From Escherichia phage vB_EcoM-Ro157c2YLVW: a DNA stretch of 64,000 bases. Both the position numbers and the translations under genes were made by a program. The notes below the pieces were generated by a model that saw nothing but the letters and a program-made list of their open reading frames with translations, had not been told where the DNA came from and ran no database searches. Below are positions 344-63,692 of the stretch, in pieces (position 1 is the first letter of the stretch; each line of letters begins with the position of its first letter). Where the stretch lies: sequence record NC_050153.1. One strand, 5' to 3'.

Positions 344-394
344 AGTTACGGCCTCATGTACAGGTTTAACAACCTGCTACCCGCTGCTAAACGG

Positions 395-560
395 GTGGCA
401 GGACGTGACGGGGTTAGCAGACTGGCGTACATGAAACCAGCAGGCCGAAGCCTCCCCATCACGCCCCACCATAATTCGGGCGTAACGCGGTTTTACGGAC
501 ATAAAAATACCGCAATATCGGAAATCTGCGGTTGTCCGCATGTACATTCAGGCTGCTAAA
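395..560 (-). ncRNA. c4-like antisense RNA and leader region of the left immunity-I-like module (ends not defined)
   Basis: Non-coding leader nearly identical at DNA level to 39430..39644 in inverted orientation; contains one antisense site and two sense target sites that covary between the copies (cores near 357-360, 428-431, 541-544). Confidence 0.4.
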
Positions 561-643
561 CCCGGTCGCAGAATTTGCTACGACGGTGGAACTATAAGCC
601 TGAACGACGATGAGATCAATAGAGCCGTGTTCGATGGTAGGTT

Positions 644-39339: not shown

Positions 39340-39429
39340 AGTCGCGAATGCTATCTTTTCGCATCATATTGACCTTTTAATCGTTCAGGCTTATAGTTCC
39401 GCCGTCGTAGCAAATTCTGCGACCGGGTT

Positions 39430-39644
39430 TAGCAGCCTGAATGATTGTGCGGACAGCCGCAGATATCCGATATTGCGGTATTTTTGTGTCCGTAAAACCG
39501 CGTTACGCCCAAATTATGGTGGGGCGTGATGGGGAGGCTTCGGCCTGCTGGTTTCACAATCGCCAGTCTGCTAACCCCGTCACGTCCTGCCACCTGTTTA
39601 GCAGCGGGTAGCAGGTTGTTAAACCTGATTGTGAGGCCGTAACT
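39430..39644 (+). ncRNA. c4-like antisense RNA and leader of the right immunity-I module (ends not defined)
   Basis: Antisense element tcacaatc (about 39555-39561) complementary to gattgtg at about 39443-39449 and at about 39627-39633, the latter lying 12 nt upstream of the icd ATG over the putative Shine-Dalgarno; UUCG-tetraloop hairpin aggcttcggcct nearby. Confidence 0.45.
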
Positions 39645-44626: not shown

Positions 44627-45442
44627 TTAGCCAAGGCGCTTACGGCGCAGTTTCATTGACTTTTTGCGGGCAAGTTTTGCCGCACCCGTCTGGGCTTTTC
44701 GACGCGCTTTTTTCAGCGCCGATTTTTGAGCCGCAGTCAGACGTTTTTTACGCAGGCGTTTACGGATGAGTTTGATCTCACCGTTACGAACAACCTTCTT
44801 AAATGCTTCAGTCAGCATTTCATCAGAAGTGCCAGCAACAACAAACGCCGCTTCCAGTTCGTCACGGTCGTCGCTATCTAAACCAGCGATAGAGGCACCA
44901 ACATCAGCAGCTGCGTCGTCGTCTTCATCGTCAGCCAGTGCTTCGATCAGGTCATCATCTACACCGCATGCTGCGAGGAAGTCAGCAACATTTGCCCATG
45001 CTTCGTTATAGGCATCGTCCTGTTCTTCTTTAACTTCGGAGTCGTCGTCATCAGAGATACCAGCGATAGCCTGAACGAAACCATCAAGGGAGTCGAAAGT
45101 CAGATCACCGCTATCAGCCCAGGCGAAAACGGCGTCGGCCGCATCACTCAACGCATTCTGCATAGCACTTCTATTTGCAGCTTCCAGAATCATCTGGTGC
45201 GCCTGTTCGACGGTCCATTCTTTACCGTCTTTCCCTTCCAGGATTTGCTCAGGAGCCGGGGCAGATGGAACGTTATCGTTAGTCTGTGCCGCCGGTTCCG
45301 GATTATTATTAATAACCGGATCTGTTGGCTGTTCGGCGCTTGCTCGGGCAGACTCCATCAGCTGCACAGGATCAGAGTTCAAAGCGAAACGAGACAGTCC
45401 ATTCCCCAAAAATGCCCCGGATTGAAAAAAGTTTTTGCTCAT
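44627..45442 (-). CDS. Structural-module protein with acidic core and strongly basic C-terminal tail (271 aa)
   Basis: DDDDSEVKEEQDD… followed by RKRLRKKRLTAAQKSALKKARRK…KLRRKRLG. Confidence 0.4.
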   Translation of the reverse strand: MSKNFFQSGAFLGNGLSRFALNSDPVQLMESARASAEQPTDPVINNNPEPAAQTNDNVPSAPAPEQILEGKDGKEWTVEQAHQMILEAANRSAMQNALSDAADAVFAWADSGDLTFDSLDGFVQAIAGISDDDDSEVKEEQDDAYNEAWANVADFLAACGVDDDLIEALADDEDDDAAADVGASIAGLDSDDRDELEAAFVVAGTSDEMLTEAFKKVVRNGEIKLIRKRLRKKRLTAAQKSALKKARRKAQTGAAKLARKKSMKLRRKRLG

Positions 45443-56303: not shown

Positions 56304-57201
56304 GCACTGGAAAAACATTACTATTTATAAACTTTCTCGTGAGGCGGATCTGACCGACTTAGAAGATAAAAAGAAAATGATCCTTTTCACGCCATGCGGT
56401 AGTCAGGATATGGCCAAGTTCGGTTTTGTATCGCCATTTGGTGATAATTCTGAAGTTATCGCTATGCATGGAAATGGTTTTATCCTTGTTGAAGCAAAGC
56501 GCGAAACAAAAATTCTTCCCCCGCCGGTTATCCAGCGAGCTATTCAAGAAAAAATTGAAAAACTTGAGCAAGAACAAGCGCGTAAACTGAAGAAAACAGA
56601 GAAGGACTCCCTGAAAGACGAAGTTCTGCATTCTCTTCTGCCACGGGCTTTTTCAAAGTTTTCTGTTATCCAGGCGATCTACGACGGTTCAACTAAACGT
56701 ATCTATATCAATGCCAGCGCGCGGCAGGCAGAGGATATGCTCGCGCTTATGCGTAAGTCTCTGGGTTCTCTTCCTGCTGTTCCCCTGAGTGTTGAAAATC
56801 CCATTGAATTAACGCTGACCGACTGGGTACGTGATGGTAGTGCTCCACAGGGATTTCAAATGGGGGATGCGGCAGAACTTAAGGCAGTGCTTGAGGATGG
56901 CGGTATTGCCCGAGTGAAAAAGCAGGATTTGGGAAGCGATGAAATTTCCACACACCTGGAAGCTGGCAAGCTCGTCACTAAGTTGGCACTCGACTGGCAG
57001 AACCGCATTAAATTTACACTGGACCATAACTTCAGCCTTACCAGCGTCAAATTTGCGGATGAATTGCTTGAGCAGAACTCTGATATTGATAGTGAAGATG
57101 TTGCGCAGCGACTGGACGCAGATTTCTTCCTGTTGACCAGTGAAATTTCGTGCCTGGTTGATGCTCTGGTAAATGCCCTTGGCGGAGAGGCTAAGCAGTG
57201 A
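56296..57201 (+). CDS. hrdC: RdgC-family recombination-associated protein (301 aa)
   Basis: Collinear similarity to E. coli RdgC (…[11 protein letters not shown]…KILPPPVI…[26 protein letters not shown]…SLGSLP…ENPIELTLT…). Confidence 0.85.
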
Positions 57202-60200
57202 AAGAGCTGTGCTATGGATCTGTTTGCAGTGGAATTGAAGCCGCGAGTATTGCCTGGGAACCGTTGGGTATGCGTCCGGCGTGGTTTGCTGAAATCGAGC
57301 CTTTTCCATCGGCCGTTCTTGCGCTCCGCTGGCCCCATGTTGCCAACCTTGGCGACATGAAAAAACTTGCCAAAAAAGTCTTGGCTGGGGAAATCGAATC
57401 CCCTGACGTGCTCGTCGGGGGAACACCATGTTTTACCGCGGGGCATATGGTTCTTTGTAAAAATGGCTATAAACCAATAGAAAATGTTTGCCCTGGTGAT
57501 TACGTAGTCAGTCATCTCGGGCGGTTACAACAAGTAAAAAGAGTTGGTTCAAAAATAGCTAATACGGGGTTACTTAATGCCGTTGGGCAGCCTTTAGGTA
57601 TAAGAACAACCAATGACCATCCCTTCCTGGCTGTTCGGTGGAAAGCCCAAAACACCCGGAAAAATGGCACATATTTTAAGAGAGAGTTGTTGTCTGAACC
57701 GGAATGGCGAGCAGCATGTGATATGCCGGGATATCAATGGTGCGCTCTAACTAATTTCAATATTGCATTTCCAGATATTTGTTCTCGGTTCTTGTCTGAA
57801 GAACAGGCTATGTATCTTGCGGGCGCTTATGTTGGCGATGGATATATTAGGAGATGGAGAGGTAAATCTAAGAAGGCGGTTGTTTTTGGCATAAATTGCC
57901 AGAAATTGAGAAAGTTTCATTGCCGCATACCAGAAAACATATTTTCCGTGGCAAGCGAAATCCGAGGGAGCATCAAAGTAACCTTGAATGATACGTGTTA
58001 TGCCAATTGGCTTAATGAACATTTTGGCGAGTTAAGCCATGCTAAGCGTATCCCTGCATGGGTGATGTCGCATCCATTGCGTCATGTGTTTTTACAAGGC
58101 TATCTTGATACTGATGGGACACCAAGTGGTAAAGCGGGATTTAGAATTAATAGTGTTAGTTCTGCGCTTGCTTGGGGCGTTGCGGGGTTGTCACAGACTT
58201 GTGGTTATGTTTCTTCGGTCAGCTTTATTGAAGTTGAGCCCAAAAAAGTGATCGAGGATCGCGTGGTAAATCAACGGAATTATTATCAGGTAACAATCTG
58301 CCCGCAGAAATTGTCACGTAAATCAAGATTGGCTCATGGAATGCTTTTACGAACAGTCAAAGAGTTTAAATCGGTAGGCCTAGATACTGTATACAACATA
58401 GAAGTCGAAGGTGATCATTCCTATATCCTCAATGGTGCGGTGGTCCATAACTGTCAGGCATTCAGTATCGCGGGATTACGTGGTGGGCTTGATGATGAGC
58501 GTGGCGCGCTAACTTTAAAGTATGTGGAGCTTGCAAATGCAATTGACGACAAACGGGCTGAGTCATTTCTCAAACCAGCCGTTATCGTCTGGGAAAATGT
58601 CCCAGGAGTCTTGTCATCGGCAGATAACGCCTTCGGATGTTTCCTTGCCGGATTGGCTGGAGAAGATGTGCCATTTGAACCAGGTGATCGACCTGAATCA
58701 GGAAAAAGCAACGCGTTCTGGCGGTGGGATGGCAAAACCGGTTGCCATGTTCCAAAGTGGCCGCAGTGTGGTTGTATTTATGGACCGCAGCGAAAAGTGG
58801 CCTGGAGAATCCTTGATGCCCAATACTTCGGAGTGGCACAACGACGCCGACGCGTGTTTGTTGTCGCAAGTGCTCGAACAGATCTCGATCCCGCAACGGT
58901 ACTTTTTGAGTTCGAAGGCGTGCGCCGGAATATTGCGCCGAGCCGAAAAAAGAAGGAAATCGCTTCCGCCATTATTGCAAATGGCGCTGCAATCAGTGGC
59001 GAAAGCCTAAATCCATGCCTACACGCTGACATGCCACCCGGTATGAAATCGACGAAAGCCGTAAACGCTTTCAGGATGGCAGCATTTGGGGAATATATTG
59101 ACGATGAAACCGCATCGACAGTAAAGGCAAGAGATTTTAAAGATGCCACTGACCTTGCCGTTTTTAGCAGCACAGGAGCAGGTTTTTGGTCAGAAGGGCA
59201 TGGTACATTGCGGGCACGTGAGCAAGAAAGCCATGAGCATCTTGTTACATTGGCTTTTCCTGAGCGTATGAGCGGTACACAACATGCTGCAACTAAGAAT
59301 ACTTCACCATCTCTAATGGCTAAAAATCCAACAGCTGTTTGCTATGAAGTAAGAAACGCAGAAGTAGCTGTCCGCCGTCTTACCCCTGTCGAATGTGAAA
59401 GGCTGCAAGGTTTTCCTGAGGGGCATACGTTGATCCCGACGGAAAAGCGTAAAAAAGTTTCTTCAGATGAACTGGCATACCTTCGCAATCACTATCCAGA
59501 TTTAAGCGAAGAAGAGGCCGCGATGCTTGCAGCTGACGGACCGCGTTACAAAGCGATCGGCAATAGTATGGCAATACCAGTAATGCGCTGGATTGGCGAT
59601 CGGATTACTAAGGCCGTATGTCGGCAGAAAGAAGGAAGTGAAACAAAAGAGCGAAAAGTTAAACCAGCGGCAGAATTCGAACGGTCCATATTCAAATGGG
59701 CTGGTGGAAAATTTGGTGTTCTGGAACAAATCTTTCGCTATTTGCCAGAAGGGAAGCGCCTGATTGAACCTTTCGTTGGTGGCGGAGCTGTCTTCATGAA
59801 TGCCGGATACCAGGAAAATCTGCTAAATGATGTGAATGCTGACCTGATTAACTTTTACAAGACTCTGCAACGCGAGGCGCATTCACTTATCACTCTGGCA
59901 CATCGTTTCTTCCAGGACTACAACACACAGGAAGGATACCTGGCAGTACGGAATGCGTTTAACAAACAAGTCTATGATGATTTACATCGCGCAGCGGCGT
60001 TTTTGTTCCTGAACCGACATTGTTTTAACGGATTGACGCGTTACAACCAGGCCGGTGAGTTCAATGTCGGTTATGGGAAGTATAAAACTCCGTATTTCCC
60101 ATTACAGGAGATGGAAGCCTTCCTCGGTGCGGAAGGGCGGTCTGAGTTTGTATGCGGTGATTTTGCAGCGGTGATTGAAGCTGCCGGAGAAGGAGATGTC

Positions 60201-60485
60201 ATCTTTTGCGATCCGCCGTATGAACCGCTTCCAAATACAGAGGGATTCACGAACTATTCCGGTCATGACTTTAAGTTTGAAGAGCAAAAACGCCTGGTGT
60301 CTCTGTTGACGGATGCTCATCGTCGAGGTGCAAAGGTTCTCATTACTAACAGTGGCGCGCCAAACATCAGAGAGCTTTATCATGACAGTGGCTTCAGAGT
60401 GGAACCTCTTTTTGCCAGACGTTCTGTGTCTTGTAAGGGGGACACTCGAGGTGTAGCTCATGACGTTTTGGGTATATTGCTCTAA
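57198..60485 (+). CDS. dmt: Bifunctional DNA methyltransferase (N-terminal C5-cytosine domain, C-terminal N6-adenine domain) interrupted by an intein; 1095 aa precursor
   Basis: C5 motifs: GGTPC…QAFS (PCQ split by the insert), ENV (VIVWENVPG); N6A motifs FVGGGAV and DPPY (FCDPPYEP). Removing the 341-aa insert leaves 754 aa. Confidence 0.85.
57429..58451 (+). other. Intein with LAGLIDADG homing-endonuclease domain (341 aa) inside dmt
   Basis: Starts with Cys (CFTAGHMV…), block B TTNDHPF, two LAGLIDADG-type motifs ([21 protein letters not shown]), ends …ILNGAVVHN followed by extein Cys, which is the catalytic Cys of PCQ. Confidence 0.8.
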
Positions 60486-60492
60486 TAAATTT
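60476..60492. promoter_or_regulatory. C1-operator-like site, perfect consensus, overlapping the dmt stop codon
   Basis: attgctctaataaattt followed by a partial inverted copy (aaatttattag). Confidence 0.6.
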
Positions 60493-61157
60493 ATTAGTGT
60501 AATATCACCTCAATGAATCGTGATTTATAGAGCGATTTAGCTGTTAGCCGCGACAGGCGCGGCGGTAAGCATGGCTGGGCCTAGTCCTCCCAGACAAACC
60601 ACCGAGTTGCCAGGTTGACCATGCGCCTAAGTGGCAACGCCGAAGTGCGTTACGAGCGTCCAGTTTGCCCATCTTCGGGTGGGCGTTTTTTTCAGGGTTT
60701 TCGTCATGGTTAGCGACTTTGCGGCGGTTTAGAAACTGACCATTAAAGTAAATGCAAACGATGATCTGATGATGGTAGCGGCCTAAGAAGCCAGATGCCA
60801 TGGGGTATGAGTCGTCCCCCGTCAAAAAATCGACCGCAGAGTGTCCCCGTCTGTGTATTAGGGAACGGGGAGGCACAACAGGTAAGGGCGCTGGTGTGAT
60901 TAACCAGATGAACGAGAAGGGGCCATCTGTTGGTCAGCGTCCTTTCCTGTTGCGTTTTCTTTTCAGCGTAACAGCGGTGCTTAACAGCACTTTGGGTACA
61001 GTTCCACGAATTTACGGGTATATCCCGTCATGCTGAAGGCGCTAATCACGCTGGAAGCCAGGGTTATGCATCCCCTGTTACCGAATTGCAGCCAGGGCGC
61101 GGTGCGCCGAAAAGCATACGGAGGTGGAAGCCCTCGCCGGAGACGTACCCGGCAAGT

Positions 61158-61232
61158 GATGGTGTAGCTCAGCGGTAGAGCAGTTGGCTGTTAACCAACT
61201 GGTCGGTAGTTCGAATCCACCCACCATCGCCA
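61158..61232 (+). tRNA. tRNA-Asn (anticodon GTT)
   Basis: Cloverleaf with 7-bp acceptor GATGGTG/CACCATC, anticodon stem GTTGG/CCAAC, loop CTGTTAA, T-loop TTCGAAT, encoded CCA. Confidence 0.85.
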
Positions 61233-61237
61233 CTTTA

Positions 61238-61324
61238 GGGGAGTTAGTCCGTAGGGGTAGCGGGGTAGACTGTAAATCTACTGTCATTGCGACTCGGGTG
61301 GTTCGACTCCATCACTCCCCACCA
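61238..61324 (+). tRNA. tRNA-like gene, class II, reading as tRNA-Tyr (anticodon GTA), atypical D-arm
   Basis: Acceptor GGGGAGT/ACTCCCC, anticodon stem GTAGA/TCTAC with loop CTGTAAA, long variable arm with GTC/GAC stem, T-arm GGTGG-TTCGACT-CCATC, encoded CCA; the D-stem cannot be drawn canonically. Confidence 0.5.
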
Positions 61325-61328
61325 CATT

Positions 61329-61404
61329 GCCGATTTAGCTCAGTTGGTAGAGCAGTCGCTTTGTAAGCGAATGGTCAGCGGTTCGATCCCGTTAATCGGC
61401 ACCA
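61329..61404 (+). tRNA. tRNA-Thr (anticodon TGT)
   Basis: Acceptor GCCGATT/AATCGGC, D-arm GCTC-AGTTGGTA-GAGC, anticodon loop TTTGTAA, T-loop TTCGATC, encoded CCA. Confidence 0.85.
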
Positions 61405-62135
61405 ACATAACAGGTAAGAGCATTCTCCCTTATGGGGCCTGGCTTAAATGCATCGAGTGCTCTTACCGTTGTGATGAAGTGCAGATCTTAGAAGCAACCA
61501 GAAGATAAGCATCTGGCTTCACAACATAAACCGCAGGAACGACCAATAAACGGTAGTCCGTATGGAGAACACCCCGTTGAGGAAGAGGCCTGGCCGGAAC
61601 CGTAACCGGCGACTGGTAATGTGTGTAAATGGAGCGAAATATGTGGGCGTTTAACGGGATACGGGTTGTAACAGCGATTATTAACGGCGAACTTAAGTAT
61701 TCACGTTTCGAGACAAATGAACGTGATGGGAAATGTATTGGTGTGCGGTTAGTAAGAGAATACGCATAACAACTACAACGTTGAGAACACTGGCGTAACG
61801 GGGTCATATCCCAATCTACGAATAAATGTTGCGTTGCCGCGTGACAACCAGTGTTCTCAACATTGTGGTGAATGCACAGGCTGATGTGCCGCAACTACAG
61901 TAGTGCGCGCTTTGCGGGGCTTGCTACAACCCTGTGTCGGAGTTCAGCACCGACCATCACAGTTTGATTCTCTGGCATGAGCATAACGCTGAAATAAGTC
62001 CAGTCTGGTGCGGTCTGATCACCCGCCGTTAGCTCCACGAAACGGAGCACGTAACAGGTAAGAGCATTCTCCTGTAACAATCTACAGGTCCACCAAGAAT
62101 GCTCTTTCCGTTGCGGTGAATGCGGCTAAGCGCAC
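61405..62135 (+). repeat. Three copies of a conserved hairpin-plus-tail element in a largely non-coding stretch
   Basis: Copies at about 61405-61495, 61775-61885 and 62050-62135: long stems (ggtaagagcattct / agaatgctctt; gttgagaacactgg / ccagtgttctcaac), each followed by GTTGYGRTGAAKGC. Confidence 0.4.
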
Positions 62136-62264
62136 GCGGGGAAATGGTTATATCTGTCCATTATTTCTCCTTGTTTCCACGTCCACGGTGGATAACCAGC
62201 CAAAGGACACCGGGAGGAACCCGGCACCGCAGCTTTTTTATTCGTTAAATAATGGAGTGAGAGG

Positions 62265-62501
62265 ATGCAGAACAATCCGAACAAATGTCGAACGCTATGG
62301 GTGCGGTTATATATTTATGCCGTCCTCTGTTTGATTGTGTCACTGGTTCTGTATGTTTGGCTTTTGCCAAATATGATCTCATCTAACAGCACAATACTTG
62401 TATTGTTGGGAGTCCTTCTCGCGCTCATTTACCCGGCTTTCGCAGTAGTCTTTTTTCGTGAAAAAACCAGGAAATTAATTAATGAAAAAAACGTTGATTA
62501 G
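62265..62501 (+). CDS. Small integral membrane protein (78 aa)
   Basis: Two hydrophobic helices; overlaps start of the next gene. Confidence 0.4.
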   Translation: MQNNPNKCRTLWVRLYIYAVLCLIVSLVLYVWLLPNMISSNSTILVLLGVLLALIYPAFAVVFFREKTRKLINEKNVD

Positions 62502-63309
62502 TGCAGCGATTATTTTGGGTTCTTTATGTCTGACCGGATGCGATCGGGTAGAGCCAGGTAACGTAGGGATCAAAGTAAATAAGCTGGGGGATGATAAAGG
62601 TATCGGTGAAGTAGTTGGCGTTGGTCGCTACTGGACAGGCTTGAATACTGAAGTTTATATCTTCCCGACCTTTAAGCAAATGAAGACATACGATGAGCCG
62701 TTCAGCTTCCAGATGAGCGACGGAACAACCATTGGTTACCACATCGGCGTAGCCTACAAGGTTGATCCAGCAAAAGTCACAACGGTATTTCAGACCTATC
62801 GCAAAGGTGTAGATGATATTACTGATACCGATCTACGCCAGAAGGTTGCAGATGCTCTGAACCGATTAGCCAGCAAAATGACCACCGACAAATTTATCGA
62901 CGGTGGCAAATCTGAATTGCTTGATGCAGCCCTTAAAGACATTCAGGAAGAAATGACGCCAATCGGCATTCAGGTGATGAGCCTCTCTTATGTAGGTAAG
63001 CCAGAATACCCGCCAACAGTTATTGACAGTATTAACGCCAAAGTCACGGCAAACCAAAAAACCCTGCAACGCGAGCAAGAGGTCAAACAACGTGAAGCAG
63101 AGGCCAACATGCTGCGCGCGGAAGCTGCCGGACAGGCTGATGCTATTCGCACAAAAGCCCAGGCCGAAGCTGATGCCATTCGTTTACGTGGTGAAGCTCT
63201 GCGCCAGAACCCCGGTGTTATGGACTTGGAAGCGATCAACAAATGGAACGGTACATTACCGCAGTATATGACCAGTAATACCGCTGTTCCGTTTGTTCCG
63301 GTGAAATAA
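62482..63309 (+). CDS. SPFH/band-7-domain lipoprotein (275 aa)
   Basis: Lipoprotein signal MKKTLISAAIILGSLCLTGC; C-terminal Ala/Glu/Arg-rich coiled coil typical of stomatin/prohibitin-like proteins. Confidence 0.6.
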   Translation: MKKTLISAAIILGSLCLTGCDRVEPGNVGIKVNKLGDDKGIGEVVGVGRYWTGLNTEVYIFPTFKQMKTYDEPFSFQMSDGTTIGYHIGVAYKVDPAKVTTVFQTYRKGVDDITDTDLRQKVADALNRLASKMTTDKFIDGGKSELLDAALKDIQEEMTPIGIQVMSLSYVGKPEYPPTVIDSINAKVTANQKTLQREQEVKQREAEANMLRAEAAGQADAIRTKAQAEADAIRLRGEALRQNPGVMDLEAINKWNGTLPQYMTSNTAVPFVPVK

Positions 63310-63336
63310 AAGCGTAAGCAAAATTGGCAGTAATCC

Positions 63337-63412
63337 GGCCCTTTAGCTCAGTGGTTAGAGCTGGCGACTCATAATCGCACGGTCACCGGTTCAAGTCCGG
63401 TAGGGGCCACCA
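63337..63412 (+). tRNA. tRNA with CAT anticodon, most like tRNA-Ile2 (lysidine type)
   Basis: GGCCCTT…AGGGGCC acceptor, anticodon loop CTCATAA, T-loop TTCAAGT; near-identical to E. coli ileX as recalled. Confidence 0.75.
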
Positions 63413-63692
63413 TATTTGGTTGTAACACGGCGTCTGGCACATGCGTCGTTAGCGGTCTGGTGACGTTAAAGGGGTAACCTTTCCCCTAGCTCAGGCAACA
63501 AACCAGGTAGCCGGAATGTGCAAGCCCCGTTCATAGCGTCGGACTGCGGATTCACCATCCTGGCGATTCGGTGTGACAGCCGGGAAGAGTCCGGCGCATT
63601 AATCCTGATTTTCTGGTGATGACTCATATCGTTAGGAGTGATTTGAGTATGCCGATTATATCTGACATTCAGCACGCCTGGGTGGAGTGCTA

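What the first reader, a model, noticed from the sequence alone, without database searches (positions are those of the whole stretch)
61405..62135. Three paralogous structured elements in an about 850 bp non-coding stretch after the tRNA cluster
Three copies of a long hairpin followed by a conserved GTTGYGRTGAAKGC tail occur where the only ORFs are short or antisense and overlap the stems. The first copy begins immediately after the CCA of tRNA-Thr. Conserved structure without coding capacity suggests small RNAs, processing sites or protein-binding sites.
Basis: seen in the sequence. Interest (0 to 1): 0.45.

Follow-up and report, generated by a model that had tools for sequence, protein, structure and literature searches.

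The report
Phage RNA-processing hairpins with tRNA-like tails
The repeats are real sense-strand RNA modules in the leader of a P1-type phage operon: a hairpin also found in phage lambda, and at a known RNase III cut site in E. coli, is followed by a tRNA-like small RNA, which makes two annotated P1 "genes" on the opposite strand doubtful.

Summary
The window is a P1-like phage-plasmid, and the finding lies in the + strand leader of the C1-controlled ban operon. There are four copies of the hairpin (H), not three: 60874-60954, 61406-61473, 61764-61875 and 62050-62115.

A covariance model built only from lambdoid prophage copies ranks these four first in the 64 kb window (E 7e-17 to 3.5e-6). H is widespread. 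It occurs in phage lambda just after tR', in more than 120 viral contigs, and in about 680 P1-like plasmids. A divergent copy lies upstream of dicF in E. coli K-12 Qin, where a published RNase III-made 5' end maps into its 3' arm.

Covariation and a 118:5 excess of G.U over A.C cells place the selected structure on the + strand RNA. The "tail" is H's basal 3' strand plus the 5' strand of a second, tRNA-shaped domain. In relatives that position holds real tRNAs. Copy 3's domain is an STnc100-like sRNA scaffold.

The P1 ORFs plp and upl on the opposite strand are not conserved as proteins.

Best reading: these are RNase III punctuation hairpins flanking tRNA and tRNA-like sRNA cassettes. This is a new member of a known kind and of moderate interest.

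The parts
60477..60505 (+). P1ban/P2ban promoter and C1 operator Oban (context: start of the transcript that carries all the elements)
   Evidence: Position transferred from the NC_005856 annotation through a 98% identical collinear alignment, L001 1401-2233 = window 60400-61232. Accurate to about 1 nt. Not tested here.
60556..60694 (+). dicF-like leader RNA segment ending in an intrinsic terminator (stem 60663-60685 plus a T-run)
   Evidence: P1 annotates a 'dicF-like region' at the corresponding coordinates. Window 60556-60575 and 60600-60638 are collinear with Qin L126 19272-19291 and 19317-19355, which form the 190-nt DicF precursor just downstream of the Qin H hairpin. The terminator scan finds the stem and T-run.
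60874..60954 (+). H0: fourth copy of the hairpin, upstream of the tRNA cluster, followed by the U-rich run 60955-60964
   Evidence: Inverted repeat I3 and direct repeat D4. Fold -46.8 kcal/mol, z -5.2. Model R1 46.6 bits. Independent model R2 37 bits, E 1e-8.
61158..61404 (+). tRNA-Asn, tRNA-Tyr and tRNA-Thr cluster, flanked by H0 and H1
   Evidence: ARAGORN. Rfam tRNA scores 69.9, 41.9 and 67.8 bits. tRNA-Tyr is absent from P1.
61406..61473 (+). H1: hairpin copy 1. Base CAUAAC/GUUGUG, bulged A, GG/CC, then a 13-bp upper stem.
   Evidence: z -4.15. R1 78.1 bits. R2 61.4 bits, E 4e-16.
61470..61526 (+). D1: short second domain. Tail UGUGAUG..., an internal hairpin 61475-61521, then CUUCACAAC.
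   Evidence: Fold of 61402-61535. The same unit is found in many P1-like loci.
61611..61771 (+). 161-nt insertion absent from P1, RCS47 and MH422554. It carries a small ORF (ATG 61641 to stop 61769, GGAG at 61631-34). Its right edge abuts H2.
   Evidence: blastn breakpoints. phrog_8025 E 9e-25. No Pfam family.
61764..61875 (+). H2: hairpin copy 2, the most divergent, with a 22-bp main stem 61772-61793/61848-61869
   Evidence: I1. Fold -50.4 kcal/mol, z -6.5. R1 47.3 bits. R2 28.4 bits, E 3.5e-6.
61864..61961 (+). D2: tRNA-shaped domain. Closing helix UGUGGUG (61864-70) / CAUCACA (61955-61). D-arm-like hairpin GCAC-AGGCUGAU-GUGC (61874-89). T-arm-like hairpin GUCGG-AGUUCAGCA-CCGAC (61936-54) abutting the closing helix.
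   Evidence: Sequence. Family-wide architecture. ARAGORN calls exactly 61865-61961 as a tRNA only at an 80% threshold with an intron allowed. Rfam tRNA gives no hit at E<=10.
62032..62048 (+). Conserved mini-hairpin GCUCC-ACGAAAC-GGAGC immediately 5' of H3, part of a spacer shared with lambdoid tRNA-to-H spacers
   Evidence: Alignment A2 of the window and P1 with L014, L062, L102 and L093.
62050..62115 (+). H3: hairpin copy 3. Base CGUAAC/GUUGCG, which covaries with H1. U.U mismatch. 13-nt loop deletion relative to P1.
   Evidence: z -5.96. R1 70.7 bits. R2 64 bits, E 7e-17. Deletion shown.
62112..62240 (+). D3: STnc100-like structured sRNA domain. Closing helix UGCGGUG (62112-18) / CACCGCA (62225-31), T-arm-like hairpin CCGGG-AGGAA-CCCGG, then GC plus a U-run (62234-39).
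   Evidence: Rfam STnc100 38 bits against a gathering score of 47, E 5e-6, model positions 31-147. Fold of 62045-62250. Same scaffold as the true STnc100 of Sakai Sp5.

Best explanation
**What it is.** The elements are sense-strand RNA modules in the long leader of the C1-repressed ban operon of a P1-like phage-plasmid. Each module has two parts.

1. Hairpin H has about 18 basal pairs: a 6-bp base CRYAAC/GUUGYG, a bulged A, 2 bp, a 1x1 mismatch, then a 10-bp stem. A variable apical insert sits on top.
2. D is laid out like a tRNA. After the closing helix come a 2-3 nt linker, a 4-bp/8-nt D-arm-like hairpin, a variable centre, and a 5-bp T-arm-like hairpin abutting the 3' strand of the closing helix.

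**Proposed mechanism.** The structure, the strand and the family membership are shown here. The cleavage steps in P1 are inferred.

- On derepression, one transcript runs from Pban through the dicF-like RNA, H0, three tRNAs, H1-D1, H2-D2, H3-D3, the cargo genes and trnI to ban.
- Host RNase III cuts the H stems. This punctuates the transcript and releases the tRNA block and the tRNA-like RNAs from the mRNA.
- RNase P, RNase E and exonucleases then trim the ends.
- D3 resembles the Hfq-associated sRNA STnc100 and ends in a U-run, so it is probably a stable small RNA.

**Side effect.** The repeated H and D scaffolds also act as homology patches at which cassettes and downstream cargo genes are exchanged.
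For: **The structure is real and lies on the + strand.**
- The consensus has 18 pairs, 8 of them with compensatory changes. G.U/U.G cells number 118, against 5 A.C/C.A cells, which would be the wobbles of the other strand.
- Sense hits score 46-78 bits and antisense hits 18-30 bits.
- Folding z-scores are stronger on the + strand.

**Family membership is independent of the window.** Model R2, built from lambdoid copies only, finds the four copies at E 7e-17 to 3.5e-6.

**Breadth.**
- The family is in lambda at 44789-44860, 8 nt after tR'.
- It is in more than 120 IMG/VR contigs and 681 plasmids.
- P1-like loci carry 4-6 copies each, always co-oriented.

**RNase III link.**
- The Qin hairpin L126 19173-19258 has the same architecture: 7 bp, a bulge, 2 bp, a mismatch, 10 bp.
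- It scores E 2.5e-5 with R2 and E 1.7e-4 with R1.
- The 190-nt DicF species has an RNase III-dependent 5' end (Ragunathan & Vanderpool, doi 10.1101/2023.04.14.536235).
- Counting 190 nt back from the DicF 3' end (L126 19435) gives about 19246, inside the 3' arm at 19239-19248.
- Window 60556-60638 is collinear with the Qin sequence just after that hairpin.

**The tail is the start of a tRNA-like domain.**
- 35 distinct D scaffolds show the covarying closing helix UGUGGUG/CACCACA, UGUGAUG/CAUCACA, UGCGGUG/CACCGCA and UGUGCUG/CAGCACA.
- Their D-arm-like stems also covary: GCGC/GCGC, GCAC/GUGC, ACGC/GCGU, GUGC/GCAC.
- In L093 and L054 the sequence starting at the same position is called tRNA by Rfam above threshold, at 46.4 and 45.4 bits.
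- In L007 and L048, H abuts tRNA-Arg(UCU).
- D3 shares its scaffold with the true STnc100.

**Not coding.** RefSeq-derived plasmid tables list no CDS under the match.
Against: - There are no transcript or cleavage data for P1 or this window. Transcription from Pban through the region is inferred from annotation and orientation only.
- RNase III cleavage is documented only for a divergent family member (25.6 bits). I placed it in the hairpin from the reported 190-nt size, not from a mapped nucleotide.
- The 1988 lambda paper on late-leader RNase III sites could not be read. Only its title was confirmed, in a reference list.
- The near-invariance of the H sequence across phages could reflect recent horizontal spread rather than selection.
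- The closing helix and T-like arm were used as search criteria, so their pairing is partly ascertained.
- D2 and D3 fail the Rfam tRNA model at E<=10, and D3 is below the STnc100 gathering score.
- True STnc100 in Sakai Sp5 has no H upstream, so H and D are separable.
Confidence: 0.6

Rival explanations
1. The region encodes proteins on the minus strand (Plp, a putative lipoprotein, and Upl), as annotated in the reference P1 genome. On this reading the hairpins are incidental.
For: NC_005856 annotates plp and upl with predicted promoters. RCS47 annotates them too. The window has equivalent ORFs at 61463-61894(-) and 61895-62080(-). PHROGs holds families for Upl-like ORFs: phrog_14500 and phrog_7444.
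Against: - Plp of the window, P1 and RCS47 share only the first 41 residues. The remaining 85-100 residues are unrelated because indels shift the frame, and P1 Plp runs antisense into tRNA-Thr.
- The ATG of Upl lies in the H3 loop and is removed in the window by a 13-nt deletion.
- Two PHROGs, of 63 and 109 aa, reflect inconsistent ORF calls.
- The Upl region aligns with non-coding tRNA-to-H spacers of lambdoid prophages, with 1-nt indels.
- The recurring motif ENALTC is simply the antisense translation of the H 5' arm.
- There are no Pfam hits.
- No CDS is listed under the match in the 25 sampled plasmid records, apart from one 'hypothetical protein' under a 42-nt match.
Confidence: 0.04
2. 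The elements are primarily DNA-level features: repeated linker or boundary sequences (or decayed miniature mobile elements) at which homologous recombination shuffles tRNA, sRNA and moron cassettes. On this reading the RNA has no function.
For: - Homology breakpoints coincide with element edges. The 161-nt insertion ends exactly at the H2 base.
- RCS47 has an extra D+H unit between the two H1 variants, of which P1 keeps one and the window the other.
- Three different downstream cargo regions start right after the D3 closing strand CACCGCA, and two alternative central inserts sit inside a constant D3 scaffold.
- Coverage across 681 plasmids is mosaic.
Against: - A pure DNA inverted repeat would tolerate A.C as often as G.U. 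The observed ratio is 118:5 in favour of + strand wobbles.
- All copies are co-oriented with the operon and the tRNAs.
- Compensatory changes maintain the pairing.
- A family member coincides with an RNase III-made RNA end.

Recombination at the repeats is best seen as a consequence, not the selected function.
Confidence: 0.14
3. The hairpins are transcription-control elements: attenuators or terminators, or cis-acting antitermination RNAs (boxA/nut-like or put-like). They would govern read-through from Pban to ban, or from PR' into the late genes.
For: - H0 is followed by UUUUCUUUUC, and D3 is followed by a U-run.
- In lambda, H sits 8 nt after tR'. In other prophages it sits right after isrJ.
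- The 3' arm reads GUGCUCUUUCC, which resembles the boxA consensus YGCUCUUUA. This comparison is from memory and was not tested.
Against: - H1, H2 and H3 lack U-tracts, and the terminator scan flags none of the H copies.
- The boxA-like sequence is locked in a stable stem. Compensatory variants such as GCUGC/GCAGC, GAUCA/UGAUC and GGGUA/UACCC change its sequence while keeping the pairs, so the structure is what is conserved, not the motif.
- Several copies per leader, flanking tRNAs, fit processing better than polymerase modification.
Confidence: 0.08
4. The D domains and tails are decaying tRNA pseudogenes, and H is an inert leftover spacer of an ancestral tRNA array. On this reading there is no present function in P1.
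For: - There is a graded series from true tRNAs to T-loop-bearing but unrecognised forms to derived forms.
- ARAGORN calls D2 only at relaxed settings.
- tRNA-like fragments occur at 61552-61618, and a T-arm-like GGGUUCGAAUCCC sits in the loop of P1's H1.
Against: - Scaffold helices keep pairing through compensatory changes in many lineages.
- One derived scaffold is STnc100, a curated Rfam sRNA family that the Pas-sRNA preprint treats as a prophage-encoded sRNA.
- H is maintained at 4-6 copies in about 680 P1-like plasmids at 95-99% identity.
Confidence: 0.12

Closest known systems
RNase III processing site upstream of DicF in the dicBF operon of E. coli K-12 prophage Qin (Faubladier et al. 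1990; Ragunathan & Vanderpool 2023)
   Same: It has the same hairpin architecture (base helix, 1-nt bulge, 2 bp, 1x1 mismatch, 10-bp stem) and is detected by both H models. It sits in the leader of a repressor-controlled prophage operon. The adjacent downstream sequence is homologous to the start of the P1 ban leader. RNase III makes the 5' end of a 190-nt sRNA precursor there.
   Different: The sequence is divergent (25.6 bits, against 28-64 for the window copies). It is a single copy. It is followed by the DicF precursor rather than a tRNA-like domain. Cleavage has not been shown for the P1 copies.
Phage lambda late-leader hairpin just downstream of tR' (6S RNA terminator). [quoted passage not shown]
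   Same: The basal stem is nearly identical to H1 and H3 (ACAACAGGUAAGAGCAUUG...CAGUGCUCUUUCCGUUGUG). It is followed by a small domain closed by GUGCUG/CAGCAC.
   Different: It lies in a Q-antiterminated late operon rather than a C1-controlled early operon, and is present as one copy. Whether the published lambda RNase III sites are in this hairpin could not be checked: the paper is not held, and neither lambda record annotates the site.
STnc100 (Rfam RF02076) and the related PasD prophage sRNAs of the Q-to-holin region of lambdoid prophages
   Same: D3 shares the scaffold of STnc100. D3 has the closing helix UGCGGUG/CACCGCA and STnc100 has CAUGGUG/CACCAUG; both have the linker AAU and a near-identical 3' hairpin CACCGGGAGGNACCCGGCACC. 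Both lie in phage leader or moron regions.
   Different: D3 scores 38 bits against a gathering score of 47 and matches only model positions 31-147 of 206. Its central insert and 3' extension differ. True STnc100 in Sakai Sp5 has no H upstream.
RNase III punctuation of polycistronic RNAs: T7 early-region sites R1-R5 and the rRNA operon stems flanking 16S/23S and spacer tRNAs (established knowledge)
   Same: These are long imperfect hairpins with internal mismatches. They sit between functional units of one long transcript and are cut by host RNase III, after which other nucleases finish the ends.
   Different: There is no sequence relationship. The H family has a specific conserved sequence and a fixed partnership with tRNA or tRNA-like domains.
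T4 tRNA cluster with stable RNAs C and D; the mitochondrial 'tRNA punctuation' model (established knowledge)
   Same: In both, tRNAs and tRNA-shaped RNAs within one precursor serve as processing signals and yield stable non-tRNA small RNAs.
   Different: Those systems rely on RNase P/Z recognition of tRNA shape alone. Here an additional dedicated hairpin precedes each unit.

Membership tests
H hairpin family (lambda late-leader / Qin dicF-upstream type; not in Rfam) | Basal helix architecture: 6-bp base CRYAAC/GUUGYG, bulged A, 2 bp, 1x1 mismatch, 10-bp stem, variable apical insert | tested here: met
   Folds. Consensus structure with 18 pairs, 8 of them compensatory. The independent model R2 gives 64, 61.4, 37 and 28.4 bits for the four window copies.
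H hairpin family (lambda late-leader / Qin dicF-upstream type; not in Rfam) | Sense orientation within a phage operon leader, next to a tRNA or tRNA-like unit | tested here: met
   All four copies are on the + strand, with the tRNAs and ban. H abuts tRNAs in L007, L048, L093 and L054 and follows tRNA-Thr by 5 nt in several loci.
H hairpin family (lambda late-leader / Qin dicF-upstream type; not in Rfam) | Cleavage by RNase III in vivo | not testable with these tools
   Only indirect evidence. The RNase III-dependent 5' end of 190-nt DicF maps into the 3' arm of the Qin member.
STnc100 (RF02076) | Score at or above Rfam's gathering threshold (47 bits) over the model | tested here: not met
   62112-62231 scores 38 bits, E 5e-6, model positions 31-147 of 206. 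The positive control in Sakai Sp5 scores 207.7 bits. The scaffold is shared. P1-like D3 variants give no hit at gathering.
tRNA (RF00005) | Cloverleaf recognised by the Rfam or ARAGORN models | tested here: not met
   D1-D3 give no Rfam tRNA hit at E<=10. ARAGORN calls D2 (61865-61961) only at an 80% threshold with an intron allowed, together with false calls on the other strand. Positional homologues L093 605-712 and L054 4283-4382 do pass, at 46.4 and 45.4 bits.
P1 Plp / Upl proteins | Reading frame and protein sequence conserved among homologous genomes | tested here: not met
   Plp is conserved only over 41 N-terminal residues. The ATG of Upl is deleted in the window. There are frame-breaking indels against the lambdoid spacers, and no Pfam family.
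Intrinsic (Rho-independent) terminator | G+C-rich stem followed directly by a U-tract | tested here: not met
   The scan flags only 60663-60694 in this leader and none of H0-H3. H0 has a U-rich 3' flank, but H1-H3 are followed by GAUGAAG or GGUGAAU.
boxA/nut or put antitermination RNA | Accessible boxA (YGCUCUUUA) plus boxB, or a two-stem put RNA acting on RNA polymerase | tested here: inconclusive
   There is only a sequence resemblance, GUGCUCUUUCC in the 3' arm. It is base-paired in every copy and is replaced by compensatory variants in some.

The most novel reading that the evidence does not exclude
H plus D is a previously unrecognised, modular RNA cassette system of temperate enterobacterial phages (lambda, P1, Qin and many prophages). 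A dedicated RNase III hairpin precedes a tRNA-derived scaffold that displays a variable central insert. This yields families of stable phage small RNAs, of which STnc100 and PasD are members. The conserved H and D edges double as recombination joints that move tRNAs, sRNAs and morons between unrelated phages. The P1 reference genes plp and upl would then be annotation artefacts over such an array.
Probability: 0.4. Interest if true: 0.65.

Novelty: new member of a known kind. Interest (0 to 1): 0.5.

Why it matters
- It would correct the reference annotation of phage P1. The ORFs plp and upl look like artefacts lying over structured RNAs.
- It ties together three observations that appear unconnected in the papers and annotations I could check: lambda's late-leader hairpin, the RNase III site that makes the long DicF precursor in E. 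coli K-12, and a repeated element in P1.
- It gives a testable route by which phage tRNAs and small RNAs are cut out of long operon leaders.
- If the tRNA-derived scaffold reading holds, it offers an origin for prophage sRNAs such as STnc100 and PasD. It also gives a search handle (hairpin plus closing helix) for finding more of them. One example is an unannotated cassette between cspB and essQ in E. coli K-12.

Tried and rejected
- **Rfam.** Scans of the region at E<=10, and of lambda and 27 related loci, found no family covering H. The only relevant hit was a sub-threshold STnc100 match on D3.
- **Tail motif as an independent signal.** It is not above chance on its own.
- **Coding tests.** Pfam gave nothing for the antisense ORFs. 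The PHROG hits only mirror earlier ORF calls. A dN/dS-type analysis was abandoned because P1-like copies differ at too few sites.
- **Lambda RNase III sites.** I could not verify their coordinates. The 1988 paper is not held, neither lambda record annotates them, and no other held paper discusses them.
- **P1 genome paper.** Not held.
- **Genome-wide RNase III data.** The papers hold no supplementary tables here, and their main text does not cover the Qin sites.
- **Sy et al. 2020.** No supplementary files are held, so the reported transcription start site between tR' and the Stx2 tRNAs could not be compared with H. The Sakai Sp5 region itself has no H.
- **Representative-genome scan.** It mostly returned noise: 52 chance matches and 21 lambda-DNA contaminants. 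Only 6 hits were genuine, all in Enterobacteriaceae.
- **Promoter inside H.** Rejected. The loops vary between copies and the scan found no sigma-70-like site in 60300-63500.
- **Sequence-string literature search.** It found only an unrelated paper.
Full report
**Context.** The window is a P1-like (Punavirus) phage-plasmid. Region 60500-62500 matches P1, RCS47, P7, D6 and SJ46. By collinear alignment with NC_005856, the finding lies in the leader of the C1-controlled ban operon. The order on the + strand is:
- Pban/Oban (about 60477-60505)
- a dicF-like segment ending in an intrinsic terminator (60556-60694)
- tRNA-Asn, -Tyr and -Thr (61158-61404)
- the stretch in question
- a 78-aa membrane-protein ORF and an SPFH lipoprotein gene
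- tRNA(CAU), then ban (by homology; ban is annotated in P1 and RCS47)

**Observation.** They fold stably, and better on the + strand than on the - strand. A fourth copy, H0 (60874-60954), lies upstream of the tRNA cluster. A covariance model built from 70 copies finds exactly these four in the 64 kb, all on the + strand. A second model was built only from 35 lambdoid copies, with no window or P1 sequence. It still ranks them first: E 7e-17, 4e-16, 1e-8 and 3.5e-6. The tail motif alone is not above chance. Its meaning comes from its position, as described below.

**The hairpin is a widespread family.**
Most are of lambdoid prophage size.
- The family is in phage lambda itself, at 44789-44860, 8 nt after the tR' terminator of the 6S RNA.
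- In one-genome-per-species representative genomes the genuine hits are all in Enterobacteriaceae. The other hits are chance matches or lambda DNA contamination.
- The P1-type region occurs in 681 plasmids, with mosaic coverage.
- P1-like loci carry 4-6 co-oriented copies.
- No Rfam family covers it.

**Structure and strand.** The consensus has a 6-bp base CRYAAC/GUUGYG, a bulged A, 2 bp, a 1x1 mismatch (usually U.U), a 10-bp stem and a variable apical insert. Eight of 18 pairs show compensatory changes, even though part of the stem was fixed by the search pattern. One-sided changes keep pairing through G.U on the + strand. There are 118 G.U/U.G cells against 5 A.C/C.A cells. This argues for selection on the + strand RNA rather than on a DNA palindrome.

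**The tail.** GUUGYG is the 3' strand of the hairpin base. The overlapping UGYGRUG is the 5' strand of a 7-bp helix that closes a second domain, D, of 54 to about 214 nt. Across 35 distinct scaffolds D has this layout:
- a covarying closing helix: UGUGGUG/CACCACA, UGUGAUG/CAUCACA, UGCGGUG/CACCGCA, and UGUGCUG/CAGCACA in lambda
- an AAU linker
- a 4-bp hairpin with an 8-nt loop whose stem covaries (GCGC, GCAC/GUGC, ACGC/GCGU, GUGC/GCAC)
- a variable centre
- a 5-bp hairpin directly abutting the 3' strand of the closing helix, often followed by ACC(C/A)

This is the layout of a tRNA. In L093 and L054 the sequence starting at that very position passes Rfam's tRNA threshold. In L007 and L048, H abuts tRNA-Arg(UCU). 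The last-hairpin loops form a series from UUCGAAU through AGUUCAGCA to AGGCA.

In the window:
- D2 (61864-61961) is called a tRNA by ARAGORN only at relaxed settings.
- D3 (62112-62231 plus a U-run) is a sub-threshold STnc100 match (38 bits against 47). It shares the scaffold of the true STnc100 of Sakai Sp5.
- D1 is a short version.

Neither D2 nor D3 passes the tRNA model. 'tRNA-derived' is therefore an inference, not a membership.

**Coding alternative.** P1 annotates plp and upl on the - strand.
- Plp of the window, P1 and RCS47 share only 41 N-terminal residues. P1 Plp runs antisense into tRNA-Thr.
- The ATG of Upl lies in the H3 loop and is deleted in the window.
- The Upl region aligns with non-coding tRNA-to-H spacers of lambdoid prophages, including a conserved mini-hairpin, and with 1-nt indels.
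- There are no Pfam families.
- The PHROG hits only mirror inconsistent ORF calls.
- The plasmid gene tables list no CDS there.

The coding reading is therefore rejected. One small + strand ORF (42 aa from ATG 61641, phrog_8025), in a 161-nt insertion, may be real.

**Mechanism.** Both models detect a hairpin of identical architecture in E. coli K-12 Qin, between ydfC and dicF. Published work shows that the 190-nt DicF species has an RNase III-dependent 5' end. Counting 190 nt back from the DicF 3' end lands in the 3' arm of that hairpin. The sequence immediately after it is homologous to the start of the P1 ban leader.

A 1988 paper reports RNase III processing sites in the lambda late transcript. 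I could confirm its title only, not the coordinates.

I therefore propose that H is an RNase III punctuation hairpin. It would free tRNAs and tRNA-like small RNAs from long leader transcripts, with other nucleases finishing the ends. The structure, the strand, the family membership and the Qin coincidence are shown. Cleavage in P1 and the fate of D1-D3 are inferred.

**Recombination.** Homology breakpoints among P1 relatives fall at element edges.
- The 161-nt insertion abuts H2.
- RCS47 has an extra D+H unit.
- Cargo regions diverge right after the D3 closing strand.

The repeats evidently also serve as recombination joints. I regard this as a consequence rather than the selected role.

**Verdict.** It is a new member of a known kind: RNase III processing hairpins and prophage sRNA scaffolds. 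Its wider significance is as a shared lambda/P1/Qin module. It also argues against two annotated P1 genes.

Noticed in passing
window 57198-60485 (+): The dmt methyltransferase (1095 aa) carries an intein (Hint, LAGLIDADG and intein-splicing domains). It is inserted at the catalytic PC(Q) motif of its C5-methylase half: GGTPC|FTAGHMV...VVHN|CQAFSIAG. P1 dmt lacks it, and RCS47 has the same long form.
   Followed up: partly
window 391-597 (-) and 39391-39597 (+): There are two separate C4 antisense RNA loci, each with its a1/b1 target (Rfam C4 71.7 and 69.6 bits; c4-a1b1 55.7 and 55.5 bits). This suggests two immI-type immunity modules in one element.
   Followed up: no
window 61611-61771 (+): A 161-nt insertion, absent from P1, RCS47 and MH422554, carries a small ORF: ATG 61641, GGAG 6 nt upstream, 42 aa, phrog_8025 E 9e-25, unknown function. 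Its right end abuts hairpin H2, like an inserted moron.
   Followed up: partly
L126 about 10990-11232 (-) = NC_000913 about 1640989-1641231: E. coli K-12 Qin carries a divergent H hairpin, a tRNA-like domain (UGUGGUG...CACCACA) and an intrinsic terminator between cspB and essQ. No feature is annotated there on that strand. It is a candidate unannotated small RNA.
   Followed up: partly
L128, L131, L137, L140 and 17 other genome-contig loci: Twenty-one representative genomes of unrelated taxa (Pseudomonas, Oceanobacillus, Shewanella, Bradyrhizobium and others) contain a hairpin identical to lambda's. It lies on contigs that, where the record title shows it, are short, of about 1x coverage, or about 48.4 kb long. 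This is almost certainly lambda DNA contamination of the assemblies.
   Followed up: partly
L038 2710-2786 (-), L114 6520-6596 (-): The Salmonella-type sRNA isrJ (Rfam, about 60 bits) sits immediately upstream of an H hairpin. This is the position that the 6S RNA/tR' occupies in lambda. It suggests that IsrJ is a terminated late-promoter leader RNA.
   Followed up: no
L206 2923-3182 (Sakai Sp5, downstream of stx2B): True STnc100 (207.7 bits) has the same tRNA-like scaffold as the D domains but no H upstream. The preceding sequence GAGCATTTG may be a remnant of the H 5' arm. AsxR lies antisense just after it.
   Followed up: partly
L001 2310-2400 (phage P1, copy H1): The apical loop of P1's H1 contains GGGTTCGAATCCC, a perfect tRNA T-arm motif. 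The window's H1 has an unrelated loop. The apical inserts of H may themselves be tRNA fragments.
   Followed up: no
window 61238-61324 (+): tRNA-Tyr(GTA) lies between tRNA-Asn and tRNA-Thr. It is absent from P1, RCS47 and MH422554, whose clusters have only Asn and Thr. D6 and N4-like phages have a Ser gene in a related cluster. tRNA content varies as cassettes.
   Followed up: partly
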